Source: Elsinoe ampelina (taxonomy: Eukaryota). From it: 64,000 nucleotides of DNA. Both the position numbers and the translations under genes were made by a program. Below the pieces are notes generated by a model. It did not search any database, was not told where the DNA came from, and saw nothing but the letters and a program-made list of their open reading frames with translations. Location: positions 444,760 to 508,759 of the forward strand of contig ML992502.1 in NCBI GenBank assembly GCA_010093995.1, read 5' to 3'. Positions 1 through 21,922 of the stretch are shown here, piece by piece; positions within the stretch are counted from its first letter, which is position 1, and every line of letters begins with the position of its first letter.

Positions 1-393
1 GACAGATGGCAGGTCAAGCTCACGTCGTTCCTCCTCTTGACCCTTGGGACACTCCTCCTCATGTGTGCGTTTCCAAATCGCTGTAAGAATCATCTGCCAT
101 GTCTTTCAACCATGCCATACCATGACGCTAACATCGCACCCAGACCGTCTCAAACCCAACCAGCCAGCACATGCGCGTCCGGGACAGCTTTTGCACGAAA
201 TACCACAAGTCAGGCAGTTTAAGGATGGCACAGATTAGCTTTTGAGAAATTGATTTTTTCCCATCACACTTCTTTTGCCAATCGAGGGTTCTTAATCCCG
301 AGCTTGTTAACTTTGTGGTCATGACTCCTCTCCCTGAGATGTCGCATTATCAGAAATCCCATCTGATGTCTTGGTCAACACTCCTCCTCCATC

Positions 394-756
394 ATGGCAG
401 ACGCAGCACGCATGGCAGACCCAACACGAGATACCGAAGTGGAGTGGGCCGAAGAACTCTACCAGGCCATGCTACCGGTTCCGAACATTCTTCGGCTTCT
501 CGACGATCCATTCGAATTCGTCCGATGGTATGTCTTACGTGCGGCGCCGTGGATCAGACACGTCGGCGTGGTGAGGAGGGTCAGCCTGTTCGTGGTCTAC
601 GATTCAATACTGGCGCTATGTCTGGCTTGGTTGTTCAACAATTTCTTCTTGATGGCGCCGCAACATCTGAAGCCCACCTGGACAGTCAACACGTGGGAGC
701 CAACCATGGTGCAAAGTAGCTGCCAGACGCTGCAGGCCACAGTGCGGCTATGTTGA
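394..756 (+). CDS. Possible small hypothetical protein (120 aa) in the non-RIPped flank
   Basis: ATG-initiated ORF in GC-balanced sequence with one hydrophobic stretch (VSLFVVYDSILALCLAWLFNNFFLM). No recognisable family, and overlapping ORFs of similar size exist, so it may be spurious. Confidence 0.25.
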   Translation: MADAARMADPTRDTEVEWAEELYQAMLPVPNILRLLDDPFEFVRWYVLRAAPWIRHVGVVRRVSLFVVYDSILALCLAWLFNNFFLMAPQHLKPTWTVNTWEPTMVQSSCQTLQATVRLC

Positions 757-1390
757 GATCGGTGGAAGATTAGGGGGCCGATGTGGAGAAAGAGAAGGAG
801 GAAAGAGGTGATCGCATGAGAAGGAGGAGGTGGTGGTCGTAATGAATCACAAAGGCGGGCTGCAGTCGCCGGGGAGGGCTATGGAGAGAATGGCGAGCAG
901 GAGGGAACTAAGGCGTGGTTAAGGAGGTTAATGGCGGTGAAGGGGCGTCACTTGCCAGTACACTGACGATGTGGCTCGACTTACTGGTGGTACTATAGAG
1001 GGCTGGCAGATTATTAAGATCACGTTGAGCACTACGAATGTACTTAGCGATAGTTAAGACGTGATCGAGAAAGGCGTCGGACTATTATAACTAGCAAATC
1101 GGATCGAGAGACGTATAATTCATTTAGTGAGTTATAATAATCGATTATCTACTATACGTATACTAACTTATTAGTACTAATTCTTTAGTACTAGAAAAGC
1201 TATACTAGTCTTTTATTATAATACTCTCTCTCTAGTATAGATTATTAAATCTAAAGAACTACTCTATTATATATAAGTAAAGTAATTAGGTATTATAAAC
1301 TATCTAAATATAGTCTACGCTATTAGTCTAAGCTAAGCTAAGAATAAGGTAGTTCTACTTCTATAGTAGTATAGTACTAAGGTAAGAGTT

Positions 1391-1547: not shown

Positions 1548-3358
1548 TATATATAGCTTTAATATAAGGCTTTAATAGTTCTAATTACTCTCCTATAATT
1601 ATAATCTATTAGACTCTATAGATAACTAGAACTCTATTAGTAAGGCACTAGTGCCTTATATTATTAATGTTACTAAGATAGACTCTATTAAGTAGACTTC
1701 TTAGAAGAAAGAAAAGACTCTTAAGAAGTAGCTACTATACCTATATACTAAGCGTAAGTACTTAGAGCTAGAACTTAAGGCCTAGAGCCTTAAGGAAGAG
1801 ATTAAGTAAATATATTATATATATAATATAGAATATACTCTAGTAGGTTTTAATTATAGCTTATATACCTCTATAGAGTATATAGTAAGTAACACTAGTA
1901 TATAGAGTATATATAGTAGTAGTAGACTATTTATAAGGCTATCCTCTAGATAGCTATAACTAAGAGAACTATACCTCTATTAGAGTAAGACCTTAAAGGA
2001 AGTAAGATTCTTCCTAAAGAATCTTAAGGTTATCTTTATACTAGCCTTAGCTCTCTAAGGCTTACTCTACTAACTAGTAGAAGGTACTTTATAGAGTTAT
2101 ATTCCTTATAGGTAAGCCTAAATTAGGCATAAAGAACTAAAGAATTAAAGAAGAAGCTATTATAACTATAGTTCCCGCGTATACTATAATTAGTGTAACT
2201 ATTAAGGCAGAGTTAGCCCCTTTAGGTTTAGTACTACACCGGGGTTTAGGTCGGCCTCTAGCTAGCGTAGTACTACTAAGGGCTTAGTAGTACTAGCACT
2301 AGCTCTGCACTATAGCTATAATAGCACTATACTAGCACTAGGTATAGGTCGGGTTATATATATTCTAGACGTAGTATAGTACTAGGTTAGGTCGGTAGAT
2401 AAGTAGTATAGTGCTATTAAGTCCTTAGTGCACCCTTACTAGTACTATACTAGGGTTACTATTCTTATAGTAAATTCTTATAGTAACTACTATATCCTAT
2501 AACTCTTATTACTTTTCCGCTCTAAATACTTAAAGTTATAGTAGGTAAAGGATACTAGAGAGAAGCAAAAGTTATTAATTATTAACCCTTATATATAATT
2601 ACGATCTAATAGTGATTTATAGAAGATTAACCTAATTAACATTATCTATATAACTCCTATAAGCCTATTATATATACTTAGCTAGTAAGCTATACACTAC
2701 CTAGAACTAATACCTTATTATCTTATTATCTACTTTATCTAGAGGACATTCTATCCTTAGCAAGTTTACCCTTATATAAATTATAACTCTTAACTAGTAA
2801 ACCGGAGTACTAAAGCTATTAGGTAGAGTCTAAGACTAGAATAATTAGTTCTAGGTAGTTTAGCCTTCCTACTAACTTATAGTATAGTTATAGATTGCCT
2901 TAATACTATTAGATTGCTAGTTAATAGTAAGTATAAGGCTATCTAGGGCCTTAATCTCTACCTAAAGGTTGTTAATAAATTTATAGTAAGTAATATTAGC
3001 CTAATAAATAATAGAGAGGTAAGTAGTAGATATAGTAGTAGATTTGCTTAAATTCTAGTAACTATTAGTATAAGTTATACTATAGCGACGTAAAGGCATA
3101 CTAGATAGTTATTTAAATATTCCTAAGGAGAGAAAGAAGTAACTTAGCTAATAATCTACTTATATCCCTTAGTATAACAATAGCTATTGTTCGATAATAG
3201 CTATTATTAGTATTGTTATTTTTTTATAATAGACAATAGCTATTATCTATATTGTTGTTCTTATAATAGATAACGCTAGATATATATATCTTTTAGTTGC
3301 TATTTCTTCTTCTTCCTCTTAAACCTCTCTTTCTTGTCGTTTAATACCTCCTTCTATA

Positions 3359-3846
3359 ATGCCTCCTTCTTATACTTAACTCTACTTCGACCTAGTAGAT
3401 CTAATCCCCTTTTAGTCTTATAAGATAACTCCTAGCAACTACGCTAGGCCCTTATACCTACGTTAGTATAAAGCCTATATCTGCTATATAACTCTTATAT
3501 ATCTTAACTTTAACAACAACTACGAAATTTAAGCTAAATACATCTATAATAACTATAGAGGTTTAGTACTTTGCTATAAAGCCTACTATACTTATAATAC
3601 TCCTTGTAACTTTATAGGTGTTTCTAATCTAATCTTTCTCTATAATCTAACGAATATTAGTATAGTATCTTATAGACTAATAACATCTTTAACCTAATCG
3701 ACATATAGTGTACTATTAATTGTCTTATTCTTAGTAGAAGAGTAGATCTACTCTTGCTCTTTGCTATACGCTATAATATTAAACGTAAGTAAGAGAAGTT
3801 AGATTACATTAACAATAGCAATAATAGTATTTCTTCTAATAACTAA
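3359..3846 (+). pseudogene. hAT-1 cargo: small spliced Cys6 (Zn-cluster-like) protein relic
   Basis: ATG at 3359 (MPPS...). De-RIP pattern CKAC-x20-C-x11-CKAC-x6-C, then an intron, then TNNIFDLIDMQ. Clear nucleotide homology to the reverse complement of 18300-18784. Confidence 0.65.
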
Positions 3847-4559
3847 TCTAATTAAGGTAGCGTAGTTAAAGCGTTAGTAGGCCGATAGCTTTAGATAGTT
3901 ATTAATAATATAGACTTATACTTTATAAAGACTTAATTACGTTACCTCTTCCCGTAAGTGACTAAAATTAACTATAATAACAGCGCATATAAGCTCTTAA
4001 AGTAGGAGTGTTTATATTACCTCTAGCTATACTAGTAGTTACATTACTACTCTAGGTAGTACTATTAGTACTAGCGGTAGAAGCATCTCCCTCGTTATTC
4101 TCTTTACTATTAGTGTTATTCTAGAAAGTAACCTAACTATTATCGGGCTTAAACCTAGCAAGGAAGTTAGGAGTATAATAAGGTAGATATTAGTAATAGC
4201 GTAGAGAGTAGCATTAGTAATAAGTTAGCTAAGGTTGTAGGTGCTATAGTAGGGGTAGTTATTAAGGTTAATAATAAGGAAAGTAGCGCGGAGATTAGTT
4301 ATAGCTTTAGCCTTTATATTATAGTTAATCTATATAATTTCCTTATTAACGTTTTTATAAGTAGATCTAGTATAACTAATATAGATACAAATATAGTTAT
4401 ATTAAAGATACTAGCGAGCAAGAGAATAAGCTTCCTTAGGGCAGCTAACGAAGGGAGACTATTAGTATTAGTAAGTAGAATTATATATAGTAACAAGAAA
4501 GGTACGCGTAGAAGTGCTTTAGAGTAGGTATTAGTATAGATACTATAAGAGCGTTATTA

Positions 4560-7050
4560 CTCGGAGGCTATTAACTAGATACGCTTAGAATACTAGCCTC
4601 TAACCTTAGTAACGTTATATAGTAGATCTTTATCCTTATTATGCCCTTCTTCCTTGTTAACCTCTTTATTACTTAAACTACAAGTAGTAATATCTCTAAA
4701 GTTGTTACTTATACTATCTATCCTACTATTAGTATTATTGTTAGCGGTAGTAAAATTGTCTATCTTAGCTAATTAGATGTTTTAAAGATTGTTTTCTACT
4801 AGCTTAGAGACTATAATTTGTTAGATTGTCTACGAAAGTAGTTTATACCTTCGATCGCTAATAATATTCTTTACTATATTAAAAACATATTTAACACCTA
4901 CGCTAGTAATTAGTATTATAAGAATATTATAAGTAATATAAGCTAGTCGTAGAAATAAGTACTTATTTTCTTTCTACTAAGAAAGAATATTAAATTTTAA
5001 TATTTCTTATATAGGTAGAGTCCTAAGGTAATTCTCCCTTTCTATTCTTATTATATAGACGTTACTCTACCCTTATAAAAGTGTATTATCTTAGCTAGAT
5101 ACTAGAGGTGTAAAGCTACTCCTTATGTTTAATAAGGAAGGCTTCTTAAACTAGTAAGTAATAGACGAGGCTAGTAGAGGAGGCAGAAGAGTAGTTTAAG
5201 GAAGGTAGTTATTATTATAGTAATCGAGGTAGTCGAGGAACTATTTATAGTAAAGCGATTTAAAATATAGTTCCTACGAAGTATACTTATATATACTAAG
5301 TTTCTAAGTTAGATCTAAGATTATGCTATAATTAAATAGGAAACCTTAACCTTTACTTATTTACTTATAATACTTAGAAAGCTTAGTATAACTAGCTTTC
5401 GCTACATTTTATATAACTAATAGCTAGTCTAAGTTATTATTCTTTTCCTAAGTAGACTTAACTATATTAAGGAAGTTAAAAAGAGTATTATATATAAGCT
5501 ATATATATTATACTAATAGCGTATAAGACTAACTTAGCTAGTTAGTTATATCCTTAAAATTCTCTAGTATTTAGATAACAATCTTTAGATATATTATATA
5601 CCTATTTAGCATAGCCGAGGCAAAGGCGTTTTATATCTACGCGATTAACAGATGCTATATCTTAATTAGCTAGCGCTTTATTAGTTTAGGGCTTATATAT
5701 AATTATAATCTCTATGTTAAGCTATTTATTAATAATTAGTTAAAGTTTAATAGCTCGCTTATACATATTATACGTCGAGTTCTAATAGGTATAAATGTCC
5801 TAAACGACTAAGAGTTATTTACGAGGAGGTAGATATACTTAAAGAGATTTAAAGTGTTAGTAGCGTTAAGGGAATTAGTTAATTATAATACAAATTGTAT
5901 AGAGCTTTAAAATTAGTTAAAAAACTATAAGAAAGAACTATAAGAAATATAACTTACTTTATAGAGGGAATTTAGAACTAATAGAGTTATTTAGATATTA
6001 TAGAGATACTACTTCTTAAGCTTATTAGCTTTCTTATTATCCTTAGTAGTTTCTAGCTATAGGGCTTAAATAATATCTTATATAATAAGATTAATTACGT
6101 AGGCTAGATATAGAATTATATTCTTAATAGAGGACTAGTATATACTTTTCTTCTTAAGACCTTATTATACTTTAGATTATAGAGTGTTATTATTACTTAT
6201 ATTGTCCGCTATAATAGTAAGAAGATATATGTTAATCTTTTTTTCATTTAGAACTCTTAGTAGTTCTATACTAAGTATAACTCTAGTATACTATCCGCTA
6301 ATTAGTATAAAATCTAGTAGGCACTTATATACTTACTAGTTGTCGTTAATATAGTATACCTTTATAGCTATAAAACTTAGATAGTTATTTATAGACTAGC
6401 TATCTAGCGCAATTAAAACTTTTGTCTAACTACTAAGATTAGTAAGAAGATTAGACTAAATGTCCTTATAGTGCTCTTTTAATAGCCTTAAGGCCTACAT
6501 CCGACCTAGAATATTAGTATATAGCTAGAAGAAATATATAAATTAGAGAAAGAAGGAATTATTAACTATTCGGAATAACTAATTATAATTAATAAGGACC
6601 TTAATAAGCTCTTTTTTAAATTGTTCTAGGGAGAATTATAGTATATAGGATATAGTACTAGTAGCGTTTGCTTTTAATTACGTTAGAGCTATCTAAGCTA
6701 CTAATTATTTATAGCTAGGAGATTTTATATTCTAGTAGCTTTAGTATCTAAGATGTTTTATTAGGTGTTTATTACTAATTAAGTTCGTTGTTAGGTATTA
6801 TAAAGCTCTACTATAGCGGAGACAATATATAAGAGGTATTCTATTAGCAAGCTTAGTACCTTTATTAAAGTTAGCCTAAATAACTCTACGGCGGGTTATA
6901 GAATTCTAGTTTAGTAGGTTTCGTATTCTACTAACTCTTAATTTACTACCTATTAATGTTATAGGCTACTATGTTTTCTAGGCTTATATAGCTAGCTATT
7001 CTTTAAGTAGTATATCTAGTTAGTAAGGTAGATAGCTAACAATTTTAATA
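4560..7050 (-). pseudogene. hAT transposase relic (hAT-1)
   Basis: Minus-strand de-RIP motifs: BED finger ~6720-6830, IALDGWS ~6400, ITADNASNN ~6200, CLAHVINLI ~6100, TRWNSTY ~5780, and dimerisation domain ILSWWKENEHLFPRLARIARDIL..PITSVGVERVFN ~4990-4880. Ends approximate. Confidence 0.93.
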
Positions 7051-7339
7051 GTTTTATAGAATTAAGTAGAGGATAGATTATTCTAGTAATTAATATAGAA
7101 CTCTTTAAGCTTATAGAGGAGAGGTAGTAGTAGCGTAACAACTTCTAAGAGTATCTATAGTTAAGGATCGACTAAGTCTTTATTAAATACTAACATTTTA
7201 AGAGTAGAGATATAGAATATTACTAGCTATATAACAAGGAGTAGAAGACTATAAGAATGCTCTATAAAAATCTATTAGCTACTCTTAATTTATAGATTAA
7301 AAAAATTTTAATAGTATAGAACTAGAAAGCTACTAAAAC

Positions 7340-8642
7340 TATAGTCTAATTTTCCTAACTTAAGGTTTATTTTCTTATTCTTATCTATATTATCTTTACC
7401 CTTACTCTCCTTATTATTATTATTACCCTTATCTATTACCTTATTATTATCTTTATCCTAATTTTCTTTATTAGAATTATTAAAGTCTCTAGTAGTAACT
7501 ACCTTATAGTATATTTTAGCTACTTTCTTAGTCTTATACTTATTAAGTTCCTTATTAAGAAGGTCCTTAATCTTAGAGTTATTCTTAACTTTTTCTTTAA
7601 CCTTATTATTACTATACTTAATATAGTAATTGTTAGATTTAAGTAAAATATTATTATTCTTATACTTAAATTCTAGTTTAGGGGTAGGTTTATATTTGCT
7701 TTAATAGATTAGTATATAACTATAAGAAACAACTATAAGAAATAATATATACCTAATTATCTGCCTATACTACTTAGAGTTTAGTAGGTGTTATATTCTT
7801 AATAAACTTCTTAAACTTAGCTTAGTTACTATCGTTATAGTTACTAGTATTATATAGCAAGTTAATACTATTATAGTAGATCTTATAGATCTATTTCTTA
7901 AGAATTCTGCTAGTGCCGAGAAGATATTTTACTTAGCAATTTAGAAATATATTTATCTCGTTATAGAGCGCCTTCTTTATATAATTAGTAAGGAGTTACT
8001 TATAGTAAAGAAGAGTATTAGCTTTATAGATACTACTCTATTTTTAGTAGATAGATATAAACTTGTCCTTTAACTATTCCTCTATATAGAATTAGTAGAT
8101 ATACCGTAAGAATATGCTATAAGAAATATACTACTCTACTAGGTATAATAGTAAGTCTCTACTATCTTCTTATATACTATATCGAAGGTAGCTTCTTTCT
8201 TCTTATTAGATATTACTTAGAATTTCTTAAAGTTCTTAAGTTTTACCTTAAGTATATATTTTATAGAGTAATTAGTATTACTAGTAGTAGTAAGAGCTTT
8301 CTCCTCTATACTAGCTTATATAGTATAATCTCTTTACTAAATAGCTTACTAGGTATTACTAAGCTATACTTTCTACTATAGAATTCTAAGGGGGTAGCTA
8401 TAGTAAGGAGTTCTAGTATTCTAAGAGTAATTTTTAATCTAGTATTTAATCTTATCGGCCTCGGAATTAAAACTCTATAGTCTAGTTAGTATTTAACTAT
8501 AAGAAGTATCTATAAGAATTACTCCTATTATAGTAAGGATTACTTCCTCTTCCTTAGTTATTTCTTTAGTCTTAATTACTAAAGTATTAGTTATCTTTTT
8601 CTCTTTACTAAAGGTTTACTAATCTATAGGATTAGTAGATAT
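7340..8642 (-). pseudogene. hAT-1 cargo: unknown spliced gene 'X' with acidic C-terminal tail
   Basis: Reconstructed start at 8642, TATA-like run ~8763, intron ~7700-7752, D/E-rich tail after de-RIP. Shares blocks KIEYWI and GILEK..KI with 19075-20372. Confidence 0.6.
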
Positions 8643-9018
8643 TATAGATCGAGAATTAGTAGTAATTTATAAGAGAAGGTAGAATATTAAGTATAATAGG
8701 AAGTAAGATATAAGATATAAGTTTTATAAGAAGAAGATAAGGAGAAAAGGATTTAGTATTCCTTATATATATAGTAAATAGAGTAGCTAGAAATATAAGT
8801 AATAATAGGTATTAATCCTATTATTGTACTAATGTAAAGTTATTAATATTATTAATATAAAGTTGTTATAGTAGAGAATAACAATACAAAATTTATATTC
8901 TATATACTATTATAAATTCCTTAATAAGGCTTAATATCTTACTCTTAGTATTTTCGCCTTACTCTTCTCTACCTTTATAAACAAATTTTAATAATTAATT
9001 TAATAAATTTATATAGCT

Positions 9019-9603
9019 ATAGCTCGTAAGAAGTAAGTAACACCTCTAAAAAGAGCAAAGCTAAGGAAGTAAGACGCTAAGAAAACTACTACTAAAAAGC
9101 CTACTATAGGTAGTTACGTAACAAAATTTAAACTAGTATTAACTAGACAAATTTACTAGGCGAAGAGCTATAGGTTTAAGCTAGGTAGTTAGTTTCTTAT
9201 AGTAAATTCTTATAGTCTTATATCTAATATAGTATAGCTATTGCCCTCTAAGAGATTCGTTACTACTAGAAGATAACTAAACTTCTTATATATAAGCTTC
9301 TCTTCTCCTACGTTATTTACGACATTACGTAAGATATTAAGTTAACACTTATAAGTAGAAATTTACGCTTTATGCTAGATGCTATTAAGTATCTCTAGGA
9401 AGTAAGTAAGGTAATACTAGTAGGATATTTCGAAAGTATATTAACTATGTATTTAAAATATATAATACCTTATACTAACAACTATAGTAGACTATAATCT
9501 TAATGCTATCTATACTAAGTATTATACTATTATATAGAAAGACTCTTAGCTTACTAGGAAATATTATAACAAGTACTACTTACTTACTTTCTCTAATTAG
9601 TAA
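9019..9603 (+). pseudogene. hAT-1 cargo: histone H3-like gene relic (3 exons)
   Basis: De-RIP reading MARKKQ...HRFKPGT / (V)ALQEIRHYQKTTELL..KLPFSR.....QD...NLRF...LQE....LVGYFE / DCNLNAIHAKR.TIMQKDSQLAR. GT-AG introns at 9188-9237 and 9436-9490. Confidence 0.9.
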
Positions 9604-12600
9604 GACCTCTCCTCTATAATACTATAAGAATAGACTATAAGAAATAGGTAGGTTTATTTTTACATAGACTAGACTATTAAATTTCCTTTCTATAGACTTA
9701 TTATAATACTAAAGTATAGTATAGTAACTATAGTCGCCTTAAAGCCTAACTAAGGCGTAGTACTATAATGTAGTATAATACTAGAATTTAACCCTAGTAC
9801 TAATTTAGTATAGTGCTATTATAGTATAGTATAGCGCTATTATAGTATAGTGCTATTCTTACTTAACTATAGTACGGTGCTAGTACTAGTATAGCTTAGC
9901 GTAGTACTAGTGCTAGTACTAATGTAGTAGAGTATAGAGCTAGTACTATTTAGTTTAGTACTAAGTGCCGACCTACTAAGAATAGCTCTACACTAGTACT
10001 AGGGTCGGCCTTCGGCCGCCCTAACCCCGCCCTAATAGTTACACTAACTATAATAGATCCTCGCTGCTACTATATAGGTTAATACTACGAACTATAAATA
10101 TAAGAAGAAGGTAATAAGTCGAGTTATAGACGACTCTTAAAGGAAGTAGACCGCTAGCTAAAAATTTTAATATTCTCTTTGTTACGCGTTAACTTTTTAT
10201 ACTATTCTATTTATAACTAACTACACTAAGTATAGCTTACTCTAACTATAGCGACGACAACTATTACGTAAGTAAGATCTCTCTACTCTCTACTAACAAC
10301 AATAATAAACCTATTTAGTTATTCTATTATAACCTTATCTGCCTTAATAACTCCGACCTAAAGAAGAGATTATAAGAGTTAGATAGTATAATTACTCTAC
10401 GTAAGGCCTTTACCTTTATTAAGTCTATCTATAATAAATAGGTCACTACGTGTAACTTAGTATATACTAATACTCTCGATCTATATAACTAGTTAGATAA
10501 CGTCCTTATTAAACTAGATATAGCTAATAGTACTACTAATAATCTTACTACCTAGACTACGTACTACCTCGCTAACATTAGTAAACTTGAAACTAAACTA
10601 GCCTAGCTAAGAGCTAAGATAGAACGCGCTATACTAGCCTCTTCTATACGTAGCGTTATATTATTAGAGAAGATACTAGACTCCGCTATCTTCTCTAGTA
10701 GTACCCTAGAATAGTTCGAGGTCTTTAAATATTAGATAAAGAATAAGATATATACTAACGCTAACTACTTCCCTACTAAGGCTACTTAGTTTACTTACCT
10801 ATACTTATGCCTCTCTAGTAAAGTATATACCCTCGTTATAGACACTGCTAGTAATAATACTATTAGCGTTAATAAGACTCTTACTCTTCTAGCCTAACGC
10901 TTTAAGAACTCTAACTATAAGGCTATAGTATATACTTAGTTCGCTAGTCTCTTCTAGCGTAATACCTCCTTTAACTCCTTTATTAGCGAGTTTAATAAGT
11001 ATGCCCTCTACGCTAAGATTACTAAAGACGAATAGCTCTACTAGCTTTAGTAGAAGATATCTAGTAAGCTATATACTACCCTCGTTAACTTCGATACTAA
11101 TAGCCTCTCTACCTTTATTATAAAGGCTTATACTACTAATTATAATATCTAGTAGAGTAACCTTATTACTAAGTGTACCTAGGCTTTATACCCTAGCCTA
11201 GCTATAAGCTACGCTACTACTGCCCCTACTTATGTATCTTATTCTACCTCTATATCTGCTACTCTAGCTACCTTTTACTCTATTACTAGAGGCGCTCTAT
11301 AGCCTTTCTATCTAACTTAGGCACTTACCTGTTACGTATATAGTAAACTCGGCTATATCTCTACTAAGTATATAGCTAGTACTTTAGAGAAGGCTACTTA
11401 CGCTACTATACGCCCTATACGTATTAGTACTATAGAGGAGATATAGTAGCTCTAGAATTACTTAGCCGAGTTAAGTAACTAAGTCGATACTAGTTCGGCT
11501 TATAAACTAGATCTAGTTTAGCCTTAGTTCGACCCCGAAATAGACTATAAACCTACTAGTTCCTCTAGCTAGAGAAACAAGTAGCTAGAGAACAAGTTCT
11601 ATTCTCTAGCGGAATAAGAGTAATTTAAGATAGATCTAGAGATATACGCTTAATAAATAGCGTTATTAGCTACTATATCCCTGCTATTATAACTCCTATT
11701 ACTATTTATAACCTCTATAACTACTTGTACACTATTACACTTTAAGCCTTTATTAATACTAGCGCGCTTATTAGCGCCGTAGTTAATTATAACGTCCTTA
11801 ACAAGCTAAAGAGCTTTAGCTACCCCGTAGTACTAGCTAGTCTTATTTAGCTTTAAGCCTATAATAGTGTTCTAATAGAGTAAGTTACATATAGCGTTCT
11901 CTTTACTACTACTGTTTCTAGTAAGCTAAATAACCTTACTACCTTTTATATTATAGATATTAGCTAATTTAATATTATTCTTAGCCTTAGCTAACTTAAG
12001 ACTAATAGAGCTACTATTAACTACAAGTATAGCTAAGTTATATACAAAGAAGAGTTTTCGCTAATAGTCGTTAAGTAGGAGCTACCGTAGCTAATTAAAA
12101 GGCTAGAATCTAGATCTAAGCCTAGCTTAGATCTAGGAATCTAGCTCGGTAAAGCTGCCGTTTTAGTTTAGAATTAGTTCGGTCCTAGTTTAATATATAA
12201 ACTAGGTTCTAGCTTAGCTACTAAGATAGGGCGAACTAGACTATATTAACTACTAGCTCTTAGGTCGAACTTTAAGCTAAATTAGAGAGAGTTTAAGCTA
12301 ATCTCCTATAGCACTTAGTTAATGTATAAGTTCTTCTACGTACTTGCCTACGTAAGTAACACTAAGTAAGAAGAGCTAACTATTACTTTTATTAGCGCTA
12401 CTACCTTCGTATTAGTAGCTAAATACTAAGAGAATAAGGTGTTTATAATCTTAGTAAAGAATATTAAAGATTACTACTAAATAGCCTCTAAGCTAGAACT
12501 AGACTCTATAGTAGTTCTCTCTAAAGAGCTATACAAATTTACTAACGTCTTCTCTAAGGAGTAATCTAATATACTACCTCTCTATCGGCTAGGATTTAAT

Positions 12601-15600
12601 AACTAGATCACGCTTAAGGATAGTGCTAAACTACTACGTATAGAACCCCTATAGCGCCTATCCCCTAAGGAGCTTAATATAGTAGAGTAATTTATCTATA
12701 AACACCTTAATAAAGGCTTTATTATACTAAGCTCTACTAGCTATTCCTTATCTATTCTCTTTATTCGTAAGCTAGGTAGAGGTCTCTACCTCTATGTTAA
12801 TTACTATAGCCTTAATAAGGTAACTAAGTAAGATATCTATCTACTACCTCTTATTAAAGAAACACTTACGCGCGTAAGTAAGGCTAAATAGTTTAGCAAG
12901 ATTAACATCTATTAAGCCTTCTACTACCTCTATAACTCTATCGATAGTAAGGATCTAACTATGTTCTTTATATATATAGGTAACTTTAAGTAGTTAGTAA
13001 TGCCTTTTAGCTTTACTAATACCTCTATAGTATAGTAGAGGTTTATAAATTAGAATTTTGTCGATATACTAGAGTACTTCGTATTAATCTATCTAGATAA
13101 TATTCTTATCTATACTAATAGTACTTACCGAGAGCACGCCGAGTATATTAAGCTTATACTCTAGAGACTCTATAAATTAGGCCTAAATATTAATATTAAA
13201 AAGAGCAAGTTCTACCTAATAGAGGTAAAGTACCTCGGTATTATTATTAGCTAAGATAGAGTTAAGATAGACCCTAAGAAGGTAGAAGCTATTTAAGCGT
13301 AGAAATAGCTAGCCTCTAGTAACACTACTTAGGTAAGAAGCTTTATTAGCTTCTATAGCTACTATCGCTACTTTGTTAAGGAATTTAGTACTATTGCTAA
13401 GCTATTAAATAATCTACTTAAGAAAGATACTACACTATAGAACGATAAGTACACTACTATATTTAATTATATAAAGTATACTATTATAAGTATATCTATC
13501 CTTACGTACTTCGATTGCTTAAAGTAGATAGTCCTTAAGACTAATAGTTCTAATACTACTACTACTAGAATTCTATTATAATATAACAAATCTAATATTC
13601 TTTAGCCTATTACCTTTTTTAGTAAGTCTATAAACGAAGCTAAACGTAACTACGCTATCTACGATAAAGAACTACTAGCTATTGTTTAAGCCTTTAAGGA
13701 GTAAGCCTCTAAGCTTATAAGTACTTAATCTAATAAGGCTATCTATGTCCTTACTAACTACTAATCCTTAATGCACTTTATAAAGACTTAGAAGCTGTTA
13801 CGCTACTAAGTATACTAGGCTCTCTACCTTACGTAGTTTAACTTTAAGATTATATATAGGCCTAGCGCTACTAATAGTAAAGCTAATATACTTATAAGAA
13901 GGAATAGAGATATACTACGCTCGAAGGAAGACTCTAACCTCCGCTAGACGTTATTACTATATAAGGTACTTAATCTACATATTATTAACAAACTAAATCT
14001 AGGTTGTATCTAAACTAGATTACTAGCTCGAGTCGAACTAGCATTTAGTTCGTTATCTAGTTTGTAAACTAGTTCGTTATCTAGCTTATTACCTATCTTA
14101 CCTTCTATTTCGTAACCTATATTAGCGCCTATTTCGGCTACTAAACTAGGCATCTACGTAGTACCTATAATAGCTATAGAAGAGCCTTTATCTCTTTTTA
14201 AAGAAGTAGCTAAAGCTAACTTATAGGACGCTAAGTGTAAAACAGTTTAAGACATCTACTATATAATAGAGACCTTCCTAAAGAGGAAATAGCTATTGTT
14301 AACTAATGTTACTATTAATAAAGGGATGTTATAGGTTGCTAGCTAACTATTCGTACTGTAGTTAATAGCTATAAAGGTTATCTAAGAGATCTATATATCG
14401 AAGAACTATATATATACTAGAGCTACTAAAATAGCTACTATAATTAAGACTACCTTTTTTATCCTAGACTATAATAACTTTATTAAGAGGTTTATTACTA
14501 ATTACTATAACTATAAACGCTTAAAGGCTTACTATAGCTTACTAGCTAGCCTTCTATTGCCTTTACCTATTCCGGAAAGACCCTAGTAACATATTATAAT
14601 AGACTTTGTTACTAGTCTACCCTTAGCTAATAGCTATAATATAGTACTCTATGTCGTTAATCGTTTATCTAAGAAACAACACTTAATCTCTTATTTCTCT
14701 AGAGATAGAGAGACCTTAGCGTTTAAGACTACTAAGTTATTATTCTTCTACGTGTAGAAACTATATAGCCTACTAGATAGTATTACCTCCGACTACGGTC
14801 CCTAGTTCGTTAGCGACGTATAGAGTAGACTCTACTAGATCCTAAAAATTATAGCTAAGCTCTCGACTACTAGCTACTCTTAAACTAATAGCTAATTAGA
14901 GGTTATAAATTGTAAGTTTAAGTAAGTTATCTATTTATACGCTATACGCTTTAGTAATTAGACTCTTATTCTACTAGTAGTAGAGTTCTCTACTGATACT
15001 AGCCTATTAGAAAGTACTAAGTTATTACTCTTTAAGGTTACTAGAGGATATAAGCCTAAGCTAAGCTTCTAGCCTCTCTCTAACGCACTATTAACAAGAG
15101 CTAAGCTTAATAAGGCTAACATCTAAGCACTTACTAAATAACTAAAGGAGGCGCTATCTATTACTAAGGCAAACCTTACTATTACCTAATTACGTATAGT
15201 GGAATAGGCTAATAAACACCGCTAGCTAATAGAATTTAAGGTAGGTAATTTAGTTTAGTTATTAACAAAAAACCTCTAGCTTTAAGGCAATCTAAAGCTA
15301 CTACTAAAACATGTTAGTCTATATAAGATCTTAGAGAAGCGTTTAAGGCTATTATATAAGCTAGAGCTTCTACTAGCGCTATAACAAATTTACCTAGTAC
15401 TCTACGCTAATCTCCTAACTAAGTACTCTAATAACTCCTTTCTAGGCTAAGCCTTTAAAGAGCTACCTCTAATAGAGGTTAATAGTAAAGAGAAGTATAA
15501 GGTAGATAATATAATTAACATATGTATATTATAAGGGAAGCTAGTTACCTATGTAAGCTAGAAGAAATATCTAGAGAATCTTACCTAGTAGCTAATTAAT

Positions 15601-15729
15601 AATCTTAAAGGAGTAGCTAATATACTATACGACTATCTAGACTCTTACACGGATAAGCTAAGGCTAAAATAGATTAATAGATAGTGTATAATAGCGTTTA
15701 AGAGTAAACGCGTTTAAGAGAGAGAGTAG

Positions 15730-15931
15730 TAATATAAGGTAGATACAAACTAGATTTAGTTAGGATTTAGTTTAGATTAGTCACGTAATCTCGGTATTAT
15801 AGCCTAGGCTTTTAGCCGCTCTACCCTCGATATTACATATGCTTTATATACTAGCTTTCTTCTTCTTCTTCTAAGTCTCGATATCTTAATAAATAGACGT
15901 AATTAACTTCTTATCTTACTAGTCGTAATTA
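15730..15931 (+). repeat. Family B LTR (3' LTR of B1, ~202 bp)
   Basis: Follows a purine tract. Homologous to 40665-40867, 46704-46906, 49069-49271 and, inverted, to 33082-33286 and 61683-61885. Confidence 0.93.
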
Positions 15932-17800
15932 TAGAGGCTAGTAAAGTAATTAAGGAGTCTATCTTATTATACTAACGAAGGTACTATAAGAACTTCTTAT
16001 AATAGTCGTCTTTATAGTAAGGTTCCTAAGTCTCTATATCCTAAGTGTTATTAGCTACTACTTACTAGAAAGACTATAGGCGCTTACATTATATACTATA
16101 AGCTTCTTAGAGGGGTTAAGAATTGTTATATAGTTATAAAGTATATCCTTTCTATCCTTAGTTTATATATAGTATTTCTTAAGCTTCTCTTGTCCCTTTA
16201 CTACTACCTTTTATATAGTAGCTAGCTATATAGGTAGATTGTTATAATCCTTAGTACTAATTAGGCCCTCTTCGATTTTATCTAAGAAGTTAAAGAGTGT
16301 ATTATATATTGTCTATATATATTAGAGAAGAGGTTAGCTACTAGTACTTAGCTATGTTATTACTTTCTTAAAGTTCTCTAGTATTACTATAATAGATTTA
16401 AGATGCTACTACTTATTTAGATTAAGTAATAACTTAGTAAGGTTATAGTTATTAACATTAGAGAGTAGTTTAGATATTAATACCTTAGAAGAAGTCCTCG
16501 GTGCTTAGAGTATAGTCTTATTCTCGAGCTAATCCTTAATAAAAGGTTTAAGCTTTAATACTTACTTATATATATTATATATCGAATTCTAGCGTGTCTT
16601 AATATTATATATAACTTAGTACCTCTTCTTAGGTAGTAGATACTTCTAGAGGTCTATAAATCGTTTAAACTATTATAGAGAACTATTAATTATAATATAT
16701 ATTACATAGAGCTTACTAATATTAGAATATAATAAAACAATATAATAAATATTATATACCTTCTATAGTAAATTTAGAATAGAGACTAATATTATAATAT
16801 CCTAGATATAGTAGTTTTATAACCTCTCTACTATGTTAATCTCTTTGCTTATCTTAAGTTTTAGATACTTAATAATGTTCTATATAACAAGATTAATAAT
16901 ATATACTAGGTATAGAATTATATTCTTCTTTATATTCTACTTAATATCTAGTATACCTAGGCTTCTTTTAAGAGACTCTCGGAGTATTCTATTATTTAAT
17001 ATATTGTCTACTATAACTATAAGTAGTTATTACTTAACTAATGTATCTTTTAGTACCTATATTACCTTATTTACTATAGCTTTACTAGTGTAGCGACCTT
17101 AAAGAGGTATTATTTCTAGGAGCTACTCTTATAATTACTATTAGTTATTAATAAAATAGCCTTCAATTATAATAAACCCTAAGTAGTTATTAGTAGACTA
17201 TTTATCTAACGCTATTAAAAGCTTAGTGTTCTTACTAAGGTTAGAGAGTAGTAATTTTTATAACCTCTTAAATTATACTACTAGTGTTACTTAAAAAAGA
17301 GTCTAGCTAGGTATAGTAATATTAGGTTAGAGAAAGTAGAGGAATTAGCTAAAGGTAAGACGCTTAACTATATAGAAAGACTAGTTATAGTTAGTAACTA
17401 CGTAAATAAGCTTGTAGTAGAAGGTGTTAGTAGAGAATAAAGAGACAATTTAGTAAATGCTCTTTATATGCTATTATAATTACTTAAGGGCTTTTTAGGT
17501 AGGGCTTTACTCGTAGTAGTACTTAATAACTATAGTATATTTCTAGGACTTAAGATGTTTCTCTATTACTTTATTACTAGTACAATAGTAAGTAGAATAA
17601 GTAAGTATATTACTATATCTATTATAAATAACTTATAGTTCTCTATTATAAATCTTAGTAGCTTCTATAATATTTGCCTATAGACCTCTAGAACGTGCTT
17701 TAGAATTCTAATTTAGTGCATTTTTCGTGCCCTCTCTATATATAGATACTATAATTATTTAACTCTACTAGTCTTTCTAGGCTTATTATAGAGGTTAATC
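15932..17800 (-). pseudogene. hAT transposase relic (hAT-2), C-terminally truncated
   Basis: Minus-strand motifs: BED finger ~17530-17630, IALDEWS ~17200, CLAHIINLV ~16900, TRWNS ~16590. The dimerisation domain is not seen; the relic is cut at the B1 LTR. Confidence 0.88.
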
Positions 17801-18299
17801 CTTAGATCTCTTACTAGGTTAAAAAGGCAAGTATTTAAGGAGTTATAATTGTTATATCTTACTATTATATCTAACATTTTAAGTAGAGATTATAAAGCTA
17901 CGTAATTCTACTAGAATAGCTAGAGAGAAATATATAGTATCTCTAAGTTATAGGTTAAGTACCGACTTAAAGTTAGAAGCTTTAGATATGTTAATTAGTA
18001 TAGATTATGTTATTTAATAAAGGTAGATAACTTATTATAGAATGTTTATTAACGTATTTATAATATGTAATAATAAATTCTATACTATACTATAGAAACT
18101 TTAAAGTAAGAGATATATTAATTTCTATAGGCTAGACTTATATTATATAGAGGCTAAGGAATAGGTAATATAATTAAAATTAAAAGCATGTCTATATTAG
18201 GGTAGAGTAGAAAATTTTTAAAATTAAAGGTATATCTATATTATAAAAAACCTACTAAAGCTATTAGCCTACTAATACTTTATTTATATTATACTACTA

Positions 18300-18784
18300 A
18301 ACTAGTTACTAGAAGAATTAGAACTATTAAGATCCTTAGGATTTAGAATTATCTAGCTTATCCTACTAGCATTTAACACTATAGTATATATTAAAGATTA
18401 TAATCTAATCCTAGATAAGATTAAGATAGTGACGATTAAGTATATACTATATGTCGATAAGGTTAAAAATATTATTAGTCTAGGAGCTATTATACTAATA
18501 CTTATTAGAGAATATAGTAGTATTAGATTAGAAATACTAATAAAGTTATAAGGGGTATTATAAGAGTAATAGGCCTTATAGCGAAGTTCGGAGTCTCTAT
18601 TATTATTATAGATATAAGTAGTCTACCTTTCCTTACTATTAATAAATTACTTAGTTATATAGTAGATATAAGCTTTATACTAATATAAGTATAGTAGCCT
18701 AGCGTAGTTACTACGAGTTATAGTATAAGGCTAATAGAGAATTAGATCTCCTAGGTTAGAATAGAGTTATACGTAAGAAGCTAT
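18300..18784 (-). pseudogene. hAT-2 cargo: small spliced Cys6 protein relic
   Basis: De-RIP CKAC-x17-C-x10-CKAC-x6-C, intron at the same position as in 3359-3846, then TNNIFDLIDMQ. Confidence 0.65.
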
Positions 18785-19074
18785 AATAATAAGGAAGAGA
18801 GGTTTTAGAAAGAAGAATAAACAGGAACGAGATAGCGTATATATCTAGTACCTCCTATTGTTTATAGTAACAATAGTAATAGAAATCTATTATTAGAAGT
18901 AATAATATAGATAATTTACTATTATTAGAGGTAACAATTAGAAGCATAAATAATAATAGTAGCTATATAGGAAGAGATCTTATTATAAAACTTAAATCTA
19001 TAAAAGGGCTAGACTATACTATAGATTAAACTACTTAGTAGTTAATTATAGTATAGAAAATCTACTAGTTAAAG

Positions 19075-20372: not shown

Positions 20373-21010
20373 AGTAAAATAAGATATAAAAGTTAAACTT
20401 AAGAGCGTAGAAACAAAAGAATAGTAGAGATAAGAAGAAAGAAAGTTAATAGAAGAAGAAGGAGAATAGAGGAGAGTAATATAGCTTTCTACTATATATA
20501 AAGTAATAATAAGGTAGCTAAGGTAGAATATAAAATATAAAATGTAAGGTTTTTAAGAATTATAGTATACTAAATTAGTATTGTATTATTACGCTAGATT
20601 ATTACATACTTATTATTAGTACTCTATAATATCTAGATTCTTCTTCTTCTAAGTGTTTAAATAAATCTAATATTATATGCCTTACTATTATAAATAATAT
20701 TATAATAAGTAAGTATTCTATATACTATATATTTCTAATTTATTAATTTTATATTCCTATTATAATATTATATTCCTATTGTTAGCTATACTATTACTAG
20801 CTACTAAATTATTATATATTTCTCTTCTTATTATATATTTCTCTTCTTCTACTTCTTTTACCTCTTCTCTTTCTACTTATCTTCCTTTATACTATTACTA
20901 TATCTACCTCGTTACTTTCTATGCTCTCTACTACCTTACCCTTACTACTATAAGATTACTTTATATTATAAGTACCTCCTAAGACTCTATCCTTAGTAGT
21001 AATAGTAACT

Positions 21011-21600
21011 ATACCTCCTAAGAGAGGTACTATAGTACTAACCTATAGTTATAGTTATAAGGGTAAGTTATCTAGTAGACCTAAGACTTCTACTACTAAG
21101 TAACTTTATAAGATAACTATTACTCCTAGAAAGAAGAATAAGTTTAAGGCTAGTAGTATAATTATTATAATTAATTATTATATTAAATTACTAATACTAT
21201 ATAGCTATTACTCTCCGAGAGATTTATTACTACTAGAAGTTAACTAAACTTCTCTACTATAAGCTTCTCTTTAGCTACCTTATCTATAAGATTATTAGAG
21301 ACTATATTTGTTAAGACGAAAGCTTTTATATCTAATCTAAAGCTCTTAAAGTACTTTAGGAAGTAATAGAGGTATTTATTATTAAGTATATAGAAGGTAT
21401 TTATTATTTAAATTTAATACTATTATAGATACTAATATTCTTAGACATAAACCTTAATTGTATTTATACTAAGTAAGTTACTATTAACTAGAAAGATTTA
21501 TAGCTTACTTGTCGCTATTATATAAAGTTTAATATATATAACTAGGACAATTAGATAATTTATAGTAAGGACAATTATTCTATAAAGGTAGATAAGTAAG
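21011..21600 (+). pseudogene. hAT-2 cargo: histone H3-like gene relic (3 exons)
   Basis: De-RIP reading MPPKRG...KFKAGT / (V)ALREIRHYQKSTELL.RKLPFSRL.REIIRD.....ESFRIQS.AL..LQEATEAF....E / D.NLNCIHAKRVTINQKDLQLACR. Introns at 21156-21204 and 21397-21444. 3' end approximate. Confidence 0.9.
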
Positions 21601-21922
21601 TAAGGCGTAGGCTATAAGAGTAGATAGAAGGTACTAGCAAGATTAACGTAATTAATAAACGTAATTATAACCTTTAACTTTTAAATTTTAATTTCTAAAT
21701 CTTAAGTTCTTAGGATATATATCTACTCCTCGACCCTTAGGCACCTATAGGTACTATTAGGTAGTGTTATAAGTAACACTATAACTAACTATATACCTAA
21801 GGCTAAGTAACACTACCTAAGGCTTAGAGAGTTATAGTAGCTAAGCTTTAGGTACTAGTATCGCTATAGGTTAGGTTATAGGTAGTAATTCTAGTACCTA
21901 ACCTAACCTAAAAACTACTCTA

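What the first reader, a model, noticed from the sequence alone, without database searches (positions are those of the whole stretch)
9019..9603. hAT-1 histone variant keeps K4 but lacks the K9 and K27 ARKS motifs
Seen: the tail reconstructs as ARKKQ(A/V)TPPKRAKPRKQDAKK...KKP. K4-Q5 and PRKQ are retained, but no ARKS motif can be recovered by reversing C>T/G>A changes. Established: H3K9me3 (DIM-5/HP1) silences RIPped TE DNA in Neurospora, and H3K27me (PRC2) also acts on an ARKS site. Inference: a TE-encoded H3 that can take the active mark but not the silencing marks could act as an anti-silencing nucleosome component.
Basis: partly seen in the sequence, partly recalled or inferred. Interest (0 to 1): 0.75.

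Follow-up and report, generated by a model that had tools for sequence, protein, structure and literature searches.

The report
Dead transposon-borne histone H3-like gene
This is a mutation-riddled, dead copy of a histone H3-like gene that rides inside a hAT DNA transposon of a fungus, a kind of element already published, although the family-wide loss of the lysine-9 silencing site in its tail is a fair and testable lead.

Summary
Window 9019-9603 (+) is a three-exon histone H3-like gene. Its tail reads (M>I)ARKK*VTPLKRAKLRK*DAKKTTTKKP, and no ARKS can be reached by reversing C>T/G>A changes. The gene lies inside a complete 7,856-bp hAT transposon (2191-10046). That element has 26-nt inverted ends, a hAT dimerisation domain, and an 8-bp target duplication confirmed by two uninterrupted paralogous sites. 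The copy is dead: the start is ATA, there are 9 in-frame stops, and RIP indices are extreme. It belongs to the H3L family first described in a Pyrenophora tritici-repentis hAT element (Manning 2013). It shares that family's C-terminal signature and its 158-residue length. Of 8 intact relatives, 0 keep ARKS at K9. Two keep ARKS at K27, and 7 keep an R-K pair there. The window probably keeps a K27-equivalent as (K/R)KP. So the K9 half of the idea is a family trait and the K27 half is not. Nothing here tests anti-silencing. Neurospora work showing that ectopic K9-mutant H3 semi-dominantly erases DNA methylation makes it plausible. Verdict: a new member of a known kind.

The parts
2191..10046 (.). 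Complete hAT DNA transposon (7,856 bp), heavily RIPped, nested in another repeat
   Evidence: TIR pattern found with 0 mismatches only at 2191-2207 (+) and 10030-10046 (-). Ends read. Empty-site comparison. RIP indices TpA/ApT 1.85 and (CpA+TpG)/(ApC+GpT) 0.19, GC 27.5%.
2191..2216 (+). Left terminal inverted repeat, TAGTGTAACTATTAAGGCAGAGTTAG
   Evidence: (pair I4). 23 of 26 bases match the right TIR, and all 3 mismatches are G/A transitions.
10021..10046 (-). Right terminal inverted repeat, TAGTGTAACTATTAGGGCGGGGTTAG on the minus strand
2183..2190 (.). 8-bp target-site duplication ACTATAAT, left copy
   Evidence: The paralogous uninterrupted sites 49368-49429 and 40963-41021 carry ACTATAAT once.
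10047..10054 (.). 8-bp target-site duplication ACTATAAT, right copy
4806..5036 (-). Remnant of the hAT transposase C-terminal dimerisation domain
   Evidence: Pfam PF05699, E=2.5e-6, 27.6 bits against a curated cut-off of 21.4, read with X at stops. Coordinates computed.
9019..9187 (+). H3L exon 1: lost start (ATA) and the N-terminal tail, 3 in-frame stops
9188..9237 (+). Intron 1 (50 nt, GTTAGT...AG, phase 1) after the G of RFK(P)G
   Evidence: Frame change with no H3 residues missing. The splice restores G-T-(V)-A-L-(R/Q)-E-I, all RIP-compatible.
9238..9435 (+). H3L exon 2: histone fold helices, 4 in-frame stops
   Evidence: Pfam Histone E=4.6e-4. Custom H3L HMM 40.7 bits, against 37.5 for canonical H3 and 33.8 for CenH3.
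9436..9490 (+). Intron 2 (55 nt, GTATAT...TACTAAC...TAG, phase 1) after YFE
   Evidence: The splice restores YFE-(D)-(C)-N-L-N-A-I-(H), all RIP-compatible.
9491..9603 (+). H3L exon 3: family-specific C-terminus (NLNAI..KDS.L..YYNKYY), 2 in-frame stops, then TAG 9598-9600 and TAA 9601-9603
   Evidence: H3L HMM 30.9 bits, against 9.6 for canonical H3 and 12.4 for CenH3. Alignments.
20972..21545 (+). Second, more degraded H3L copy (about 70% nucleotide identity to copy A over 9170-9574), with the same intron places
   Evidence: Exon 3 scores 28.1 bits on the H3L HMM, against 9.3 and 12.5.
16527..17244 (+). Stretch similar to 5720-6442 of element A, suggesting that copy B sits in a rearranged fragment of the same transposon family
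   Evidence: Self-BLAST, 65% identity over 741 bp. No hAT Pfam domain and no TIR were recovered there.

Best explanation
Window 9019-9603 is a pseudogene of a histone H3-like (H3L) gene. [quoted passage not shown] The gene belongs to the H3L lineage first described in the hAT element of Pyrenophora tritici-repentis. I also find that lineage as intact genes in P. teres, Alternaria, Paraphoma and Massariosphaeria. Shown here: the transposon ends, the target duplication, the gene model, family membership and loss of function. The unusual tail is inherited from the family and was not made by RIP: ARxKQ is kept, R8-K9 and ARKS are gone, GG/K14/PRKQ/K23 are recognisable, a K27-equivalent sits in a (K/R)KP context, and there is a 13-residue insertion before RFKPGT. 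Inferred: an intact H3L would pair with H4 and enter nucleosomes as an H3 variant that the H3K9 methyltransferase (DIM-5/KMT1) cannot modify. Across the family the tail runs from nearly canonical to very divergent while the fold and C-terminus stay conserved. I therefore think the tail most likely drifted under relaxed constraint in a passenger paralogue, and that any loosening of heterochromatin was a by-product. In this genome the locus does nothing now.
For: Transposon: the TIR pattern hits only the two ends with 0 mismatches. The TIRs match at 23 of 26 bases and all 3 differences are transitions. ACTATAAT flanks both ends, while two paralogues of the host repeat carry it once (the left flank 2129-2190 is 98% identical to 49368-49429). 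Dimer_Tnp_hAT scores above Pfam's cut-off. Gene: the three exons add up to 477 nt, or 158 codons plus a stop, the same length as Ptr H3L P0152. Against P0152, 59 of 158 codons are identical and 43 more are RIP-compatible. Family: exon 3 scores 30.9 bits on an H3L profile, 9.6 on canonical H3 and 12.4 on CenH3. Copy B gives 28.1, 9.3 and 12.5. Shared derived motifs are RFK.G, PFS.V, LVGYFE, CN(L/I)NAIH and KDS.LA.RYY.KY. Death: ATA start, 9 in-frame stops, TpA/ApT 2.12, (CpA+TpG)/(ApC+GpT) 0.18. Tail as a family trait: ARKS at K9 in 0 of 8 intact relatives. The TPPKR stretch occurs in both window copies. Graded tails: the unnamed relatives P0334 and P0336 still read MARTKQ..(A S K S / P R K T)TGGK, whereas the Pyrenophora and Alternaria tails are far from canonical. 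Over 27 pairs, mean identity is 0.48 in the tail and 0.67 in the fold plus C-terminus (the P0321/P0343 same-species pair was left out). Literature: Manning 2013 (PMC3538342, passages, Table S10) and Dhillon 2019 (PMC6710886, abstract and Results).
Against: The RIP-aware score over exons 2+3 separates H3L relatives from canonical H3 only modestly (320-351 against 307; one P. teres protein with an internal deletion scores 289). On exon 2 alone canonical H3 scores as well as or better than several H3L proteins. The discrimination therefore rests mainly on the 37-codon exon 3. The profiles are small (7, 7 and 5 sequences of my choosing), and the canonical one is nearly invariant, which penalises any divergence. 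The tail itself has no significant profile match (1.3 bits). I could not compare the transposases, so common descent of the whole element with the Ptr element is not shown. Only for Ptr is it published that the intact relatives sit in hAT elements. 'Drift' against 'selected loss of K9' cannot be told apart without coding DNA of the relatives. The consistent absence of ARKS at K9 in 8 of 8, against retention of R-K at K27 in 7 of 8, fits selection at least as well as drift.
Confidence: 0.62

Rival explanations
1. Anti-silencing cargo. The intact H3L is kept by the transposon because nucleosomes containing it cannot receive H3K9me3. A multi-copy, K9-less H3 then 'poisons' DIM-5/HP1/DIM-2 heterochromatin, and possibly the heterochromatin-linked branch of RIP, keeping the element transcribed and mobile. 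K27 is not part of the mechanism.
For: ARKS at K9 is present in 0 of 8 intact relatives. By my reading, a lysine at the K9 place survives in only 2 of 8, each with a change within R8-S10. The window has a gap at R8-K9. In Neurospora an ectopic hH3 K9L/K9R allele causes semi-dominant, near-complete loss of DNA methylation and reactivates a silenced transgene. The authors raise a possible dose dependence, and DIM-5 needs R8-G12 in vitro (PMC3248561, abstract and passages). The fold and a family-specific C-terminus are conserved across several Pleosporales genera, which suggests a retained function. Ptr H3L is reported as expressed and present in 26 copies, and its authors asked whether altered chromatin lay behind TE amplification (PMC3538342). 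DIM-5 and H3K9me3 are linked to a second RIP pathway (10.1101/115501, start of the abstract seen in the listing only).
Against: There is no functional data of any kind here. Both window copies are fully RIPped, so no protection was achieved in this genome. Tails differ widely among relatives and K4 is not constant (4 of 7). A freely diffusing histone has no obvious way to act preferentially on its own element. The Neurospora alleles were point mutants of canonical H3, whereas by BLASTP H3L shares only about 55-65% identity with the H3 proteins listed, so its incorporation into nucleosomes is unproven.
Confidence: 0.2
2. H3L is maintained for another purpose. It could be a variant histone that helps the element's own transposition or expression in cis, or a variant that benefits the host under some condition. 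On this reading the K9 site is irrelevant.
For: The fold and the odd C-terminal RYY.KY extension are conserved among intact relatives from several genera. The extension replaces the canonical RRLRGERS/A end, which suggests altered contacts rather than decay.
Against: No partner, no expression data and no context for the relatives could be obtained.
Confidence: 0.1
3. Independent capture. This hAT picked up its own host's canonical H3 gene, introns included, and the likeness to Ptr H3L is convergence plus RIP noise.
For: Exon 2 is at least as close to canonical H3 as to several H3L proteins. Captures by hAT elements have been inferred more than once (PMC6710886).
Against: Both window copies share the H3L-only C-terminus, about 19-21 bits above canonical H3 on exon 3. 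They also share LVGYFE, N(L/I)NAI and KDS, the extended tail and the 158-residue length. RIP makes only transitions and cannot create these shared residues in two copies.
Confidence: 0.05
4. Not a gene at all: a chance lysine-rich reading frame in AT-rich DNA.
For: AAA/AAG-rich RIPped DNA translates into K-rich strings. The tail alone has no significant profile match.
Against: There are histone-fold matches in two copies. Introns with GT..AG and a TACTAAC branch site sit at places where the frame shifts. The in-frame total is 477 nt. The tail beats shuffles.
Confidence: 0.01

Closest known systems
hAT-borne histone H3-like (H3L) genes of Pyrenophora tritici-repentis (Manning et al. 2013, PMC3538342)
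   Same: The cargo is a histone H3-like gene inside a hAT element with TIRs. The protein length is the same (158 aa). The derived motifs are shared (RFK.G, PFSRV, LVGYFEDCNINAIH, KDSQLARRY.). The tail is extended, starts MAR.K and has no ARKS.
   Different: The Ptr element is reported as about 5.6 kb (or a 2.3-kb derivative), with nearly identical, intact, expressed copies and little RIP. Here the element is 7.9 kb and both copies are RIP-killed. The tail sequences differ greatly in detail. The transposases could not be compared.
hAT-mediated H3 transduplication in Pseudocercospora, Cercospora and Sphaerulina (Dhillon et al. 2019, PMC6710886)
   Same: hAT element, 8-bp TSD, H3-like cargo, confinement to AT-rich blocks, and all extra copies inactivated by RIP.
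   Different: Those copies are reported as intronless (capture of a transcript), with one or two per 9.5-kb element, mostly similar to H3's third exon only. Here the gene has two introns and there is one copy in a 7.9-kb element. The window's TIR 9-mers are absent from their consensus file (0 hits). The authors state that their elements show no similarity to the Ptr element.
Ectopic hH3 K9L/K9R alleles in Neurospora crassa (Adhvaryu et al. 2011, PMC3248561)
   Same: An extra H3 gene that cannot be methylated at K9, present beside the normal gene. [quoted passage not shown]
   Different: These are laboratory point mutants of canonical H3, not a natural, transposon-borne, divergent variant. The likeness is of mechanism only; it is not a family.
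VANC anti-silencing proteins of Arabidopsis VANDAL (Mutator-type) transposons (Fu et al. 2013; Hosaka et al. 2017)
   Same: The only well-known case, as far as I recall, of a DNA transposon encoding a factor that undoes its own epigenetic silencing.
   Different: VANC is not a histone and acts sequence-specifically (recalled). I saw only the two titles in the reference list of PMC8616336.
Centromeric H3 (CenH3/Cse4/hH3v) of fungi
   Same: An H3-fold protein with a long, divergent tail lacking ARKS. Many of the 120 proteins listed for the H3L-like fragment P0032 among proteins of 152 residues or more bear CenH3 names (canonical H3 was excluded by length).
   Different: The window lacks the CenH3 loop-1 pattern and the GAWGGLG end. 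The CenH3 profile scores 12.4 bits on exon 3, against 30.9 for H3L.

Membership tests
hAT superfamily DNA transposon | 8-bp target-site duplication | tested here: met
   ACTATAAT lies at 2183-2190 and 10047-10054. Paralogous uninterrupted sites carry it once.
hAT superfamily DNA transposon | Short terminal inverted repeats | tested here: met
   26-nt TIRs match at 23 of 26 bases, and all mismatches are transitions. That the TAGTG start fits the usual hAT terminus is recalled, not tested.
hAT superfamily DNA transposon | Transposase with the hAT C-terminal dimerisation domain | tested here: met
   PF05699 at 27.6 bits (cut-off 21.4), E=2.5e-6, at 4806-5036 on the minus strand. The reading frame is full of stops, so the transposase is not intact.
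Histone H3 (histone fold, Pfam PF00125) | Significant match to the histone-fold profile | tested here: inconclusive
   Exon 2 alone gives 20.9 bits, below the curated 26.4 (E=4.6e-4). RIP and the split into exons lower the score. A profile of the two copies finds 1150 proteins at E<=1e-3, H3-type in those I looked at. Custom H3 profiles give E down to 5.9e-14 in a five-sequence search.
Canonical H3 | Invariant tail with ARKS at K9 and K27, and the C-terminus RRLRGERS/A | tested here: not met
   ARKS is unreachable by RIP reversal. The C-terminus is of the H3L type.
Pleosporales-type H3L (Ptr H3L family) | Family-specific fold and C-terminal motifs (LVGYFED-CN(I/L)NAIH, KDS.LA.RYY.KY) | tested here: met
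   Exon 3 scores 30.9 bits (copy A) and 28.1 bits (copy B) on the H3L profile, against 9.6 and 9.3 for canonical H3 and 12.4 and 12.5 for CenH3.
Pleosporales-type H3L (Ptr H3L family) | Extended N-terminal tail with insertions and no ARKS at K9 | tested here: met
   The tail is 57 codons to ..KLGS, against 44 residues to the matching G in the canonical H3 I used. ARKS at K9 is present in 0 of 8 relatives. The tail is most similar to the Pyrenophora H3L tails (z 3.75 and 3.45).
Pleosporales-type H3L (Ptr H3L family) | Carried between the TIRs of a hAT element | tested here: met
   9019-9603 lies inside 2191-10046. For the relatives other than Ptr this feature is unknown.
Pleosporales-type H3L (Ptr H3L family) | Intact, expressed open reading frame | tested here: not met
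   ATA start and 9 in-frame stops. Expression could not be judged here.
Mycosphaerellaceae hAT-H3 transduplicates (Dhillon 2019) | Intronless copy derived from a transcript | tested here: not met
   Two introns with GT..AG, one with a TACTAAC branch site, lie at 9188-9237 and 9436-9490. Copy B has the same intron places.
CenH3 | CenH3-type loop 1 and C-terminus | tested here: not met
   The CenH3 profile scores lower than the H3L profile on both exons of both copies.

The most novel reading that the evidence does not exclude
The H3L lineage is a transposon-encoded 'heterochromatin poison'. It is an H3 variant that has shed the DIM-5 recognition stretch (R8-G12) while keeping the fold. Amplified with its hAT carrier, it would semi-dominantly block H3K9me3/HP1/DNA methylation, and perhaps the DIM-5-dependent branch of RIP. 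This would be a natural counterpart of the laboratory hH3 K9L/K9R alleles of Neurospora. The window would then show the end of the arms race, with RIP having won.
Probability: 0.2. Interest if true: 0.8.

Novelty: new member of a known kind. Interest (0 to 1): 0.42.

Why it matters
As a locus it is ordinary: a dead copy of a published kind of element. Two points go a little beyond what I could find in print. First, the Ptr-type H3L gene appears not to be a recent, Ptr-only capture. Intact relatives with the same derived C-terminus exist in several Pleosporales genera, and this window holds a RIP-killed, intron-bearing copy inside a complete hAT element. Second, loss of the K9 site is common to all members seen, whereas the K27 site is mostly kept. 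Together with the Neurospora result that a K9-less extra H3 gene erases DNA methylation, this gives a concrete question that can be tested with existing tools: can a mobile element carry a histone that disarms heterochromatin? If the answer were yes, it would be a new class of transposon counter-defence.

Tried and rejected
- **No genome held.** The window has no whole genome on hand, so I obtained no copy number, no multi-copy pre-RIP inference and no host hH3.
- **Word search with the tail.** It gave 3 candidates, none scoring, so no intact protein with this tail was found. This is weak evidence.
- **Representative search.** All but one of the 16 hits at E<=1e-10 (15 of 16) are gene models or fragments with two or three H3 domains, which inflates the score. 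Only P0015, P0019, P0029, P0032 and P0033 looked H3L-like.
- **The look-up of sequencing runs.** There were two DNA rows of one study holding 0.49 of the words, with the organism coded. No RNA holder was listed.
- **The search of earlier findings.** Nothing came back.
- **Six-frame Pfam of 15932-24933.** This found no hAT domain, only Gypsy-type RT/RNase H/integrase. No TIR was found near copy B, so copy B's element is not delimited.
- **TIR motifs in Dhillon's consensus file.** There were 0 hits for the 9-mers and only unrelated hits for shorter strings. This neither proves nor excludes a relationship.
- **ORFs in the un-RIPped first kilobase** gave nothing recognisable, so the taxon was not determined.
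- **Rejected origins.** CenH3 origin, a Mycosphaerellaceae-type retrocopy (introns present) and a chance frame were all considered and rejected.
- **** failed on a too-short search term and was corrected.
- **Literature.** Searches for any paper linking H3L to K9/K27 or anti-silencing found none beyond the papers cited (plus in-paper searches). Only 12 of the 31 supplementary files of PMC3538342 were searched.
Full report
**1. What is at the coordinates.**
- The window is an AT-rich block, about 24-39% GC from 1 kb onwards. It bears the dinucleotide signature of repeat-induced point mutation: whole-window TpA/ApT is 2.03 and (CpA+TpG)/(ApC+GpT) is 0.19. Only the first kilobase looks unmutated, at 0.52 and 1.31.
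- From 9019, frame 1 reads IARKK*VTPLKRAKLRK*DAKKTTTKKPTIGSYVTKFKLVLTRQIY*AKSYRFKLGS.
- Two frame changes follow. Each coincides with a short GT..AG interval, and the second has a perfect TACTAAC branch site.
- The other two exons read ..IAL*EIRYY*KITKLLIYKLLFSYVIYDIT*DIK...LRFMLDAIKYL*EVSKVILVGYFE and ..YNLNAIYTKYYTII*KDS*LTRKYYNKYYLLTFSN**.
- With exons 9019-9187, 9238-9435 and 9491-9600 the coding length is 477 nt, that is 158 codons plus a stop.
- The start is ATA and there are nine in-frame stops, all TAA or TAG. This is a RIP-killed histone H3-type gene.
- A second, more decayed copy lies at about 20972-21545. It has the same intron places and about 70% nucleotide identity over 9170-9574. 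A six-frame profile scan finds no third copy in the window.

**2. The observation.**
- I listed every codon that can give the observed codon by C>T or G>A changes.
- ARKS is unreachable in any of the three frames in the tail regions of either copy.
- The tail is more than a chance lysine-rich frame. Its collinear, RIP-aware alignment score beats 200 codon shuffles, with z=2.6 against canonical H3 (1 of 200), 3.75 against Ptr H3L (0 of 200) and 3.45 against P. teres H3L (1 of 200).
- As a plain profile match the tail is not significant (1.3 bits).
- The K4 reading rests on copy A alone. In copy B only the TPPKR stretch is still recognisable.

**3. The carrier.**
- A 26-nt inverted repeat, TAGTGTAACTATTA(A/G)GGC(A/G)G(A/G)GTTAG, lies at 2191-2216 and, reversed, at 10021-10046. 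The three mismatches are all transitions.
- Both ends are flanked by ACTATAAT.
- The element sits inside another repeat that has further copies in the window. In two of these (around 49422 and 41014) the flanks are continuous and ACTATAAT occurs once. This is an empty-site proof of the ends and of an 8-bp target duplication.
- On the minus strand at 4806-5036, read with X at stops, there is a hAT dimerisation domain above Pfam's cut-off (27.6 against 21.4 bits).
- The gene is therefore cargo of a complete, 7,856-bp, RIP-degraded hAT transposon.

**4. Which histone.**
- The literature has two cases of hAT elements carrying H3-like genes in Dothideomycetes.
  - Pyrenophora tritici-repentis: 26 nearly identical, expressed 'H3L' genes, with tails containing insertions, grouping with 'neither' H3 nor CenH3 (PMC3538342, passages).
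  - Pseudocercospora, Cercospora and Sphaerulina: hundreds of RIPped, intronless copies in 9.5-kb elements (PMC6710886).
- Table S10 of the first paper prints the Ptr H3L protein. I then obtained it as stored proteins P0152 and P0153, together with intact relatives named from P. teres, Paraphoma chrysanthemicola, Alternaria alternata and Massariosphaeria phaeospora, and two unnamed ones.
- These share RFK(P/A)GT, PFSR(L/V)V, LVGYFEDCN(I/L)NAIH and a C-terminal KDS.LA(R/K)RYY.KY in place of the canonical KDIQLARRLRGERS.
- The window's exon 3 has the same features once RIP is allowed for.
- Small profiles built here give, for exon 3, 30.9 bits (H3L), 9.6 (canonical H3) and 12.4 (CenH3). For copy B the values are 28.1, 9.3 and 12.5. 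For exon 2 the margins are small: 40.7, 37.5 and 33.8 for copy A, and 30.1, 24.0 and 27.4 for copy B.
- Caveats: I chose 7, 7 and 5 sequences for these profiles. The near-invariant canonical profile punishes divergence. On exon 2 alone canonical H3 does as well as many H3L proteins.
- The model's length equals that of Ptr H3L (158 residues), and 102 of 158 codons are identical or RIP-compatible with it.
- I file the gene as a member of the Ptr-type H3L family. It does not fit the Mycosphaerellaceae type, which is described as intronless. The window's TIR 9-mers also do not occur in that paper's consensus file.

**5. The tail in the family.** These counts come from the eight intact relatives, one of which lacks its first residues.
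- ARKS at the K9 place is present in 0 of 8.
- Reading back from the conserved TGGK, a lysine at the K9 place survives in 2 of 8 (ASKS-TGGK and PRKT-TGGK). This is my reading of the printed sequences.
- ARKS at the K27 place is present in 2 of 8. An R-K pair there is present in 7 of 8 (AARKS, AARKA, AARKK, ATRKS, ANRKP; Ptr has ARRQ).
- MARTK is present in 4 of the 7 with an N-terminus.
- In the RIP-aware alignment of the window's model with canonical H3, the gap falls on R8-K9. GG, K14 (shifted), PRKQ and K23 can be recognised. K27 corresponds to (K/R)K followed by P, as in P. teres NRKP. A 13-residue insertion precedes (H)RFK(P)GT. In such low-complexity sequence the exact columns depend on the alignment.
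The statement about K27 holds for the exact motif but probably not for the lysine.

**6. How it works.**
- Shown: the locus is non-functional now.
- Inferred for intact members: the fold and C-terminus are conserved (mean pairwise identity 0.67 over 27 pairs), while the tail is not (0.48). The protein is thus probably a nucleosomal H3 variant whose tail is not a DIM-5 substrate.
- In Neurospora only R8-G12 are needed for DIM-5 in vitro. [quoted passage not shown] The authors raise a possible dose dependence (PMC3248561, abstract and passages).
- This makes the anti-silencing idea mechanistically credible for K9. I found no paper proposing it for H3L (searches; within the papers). Manning et al. 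only ask whether altered chromatin could have favoured TE amplification.
- Against the idea:
  - The tails run from almost canonical to very divergent, as expected for relaxed constraint.
  - K4 is not fixed.
  - A diffusible histone cannot favour its own element.
  - The two copies here were RIPped to death.
- I give about 0.6 to 'passenger paralogue with a drifting tail', 0.2 to 'anti-silencing cargo' and 0.1 to another retained function. The rest goes to independent capture or chance.

**7. What could not be done.**
- No genome is held.
- The organism stayed coded.
- Whether the relatives outside Ptr are hAT-borne is unknown.
- Files 13-31 of the supplement of PMC3538342 were not searched.
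- Statements about VANC and about typical hAT termini are recalled, not tested.

**8. Verdict.** The feature is a new, dead member of a known kind (hAT-borne H3L). The useful residue is a sharpened, testable hypothesis about K9 only, best tested with intact H3L in Neurospora.

Noticed in passing
window 10047-15931, with further copies at 33080-38285 (inverted), 41014-46906, 49422-51678, 58968-61682 and 61683-64000: A repeat unit of about 5.9 kb, 82-86% identical between copies, makes up much of the window. About 200-bp pieces (for example 15727-15931, 40665-40867, 46701-46906, 49066-49271) recur at its borders like LTRs. The hAT element is inserted in one copy of this repeat.
   Followed up: partly
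window about 22450-24160 (+): A RIPped Gypsy-type polyprotein remnant lies just downstream of H3L copy B: RVT_1 E=9.7e-12, RT_RNaseH_2 E=7.2e-8, and an integrase zinc domain at E=0.0044.
   Followed up: no
window 30483-31356: This stretch matches itself in inverted orientation (82% over 890 bp) and also holds a direct duplication of about 400 bp (30483-30889 against 30884-31289, 92%). It is a palindromic rearrangement inside the repeat block.
   Followed up: no
window 1-1000 against 1001 onwards: There is a sharp boundary of the AT-rich block. GC falls from 52.9% to 27.7%, and the RIP indices switch from normal (0.52 / 1.31) to extreme. No recognisable ORF lies in the GC-rich kilobase.
   Followed up: partly
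window 2300-2440 and 9780-9960: Both subterminal regions of the hAT element hold arrays of short repeats of the type TAGTATAGTGCTATTATAG. These may be transposase-binding subterminal repeats.
   Followed up: no
window 3366-3924 against 18780-18227: A piece of element A recurs inverted between the transposase-like stretch and H3L copy B (72% over 572 bp). The second element is therefore rearranged.
   Followed up: no
proteins P0001-P0014 and P0016 of the representative library: The best-scoring 'relatives' are gene models or fragments that hold two or three canonical H3 units, in some cases with H4, H2A or H1 pieces. Such models inflate scores in searches with histone queries.
   Followed up: no
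proteins P0019, P0033, P0071, P0076, P0120, P0138: These predicted proteins read through unspliced introns placed after ..KPG and after ..(L/Y)FE, the same two places as the window's introns. Both intron positions therefore recur in other H3-type genes; their organisms are not named.
   Followed up: partly
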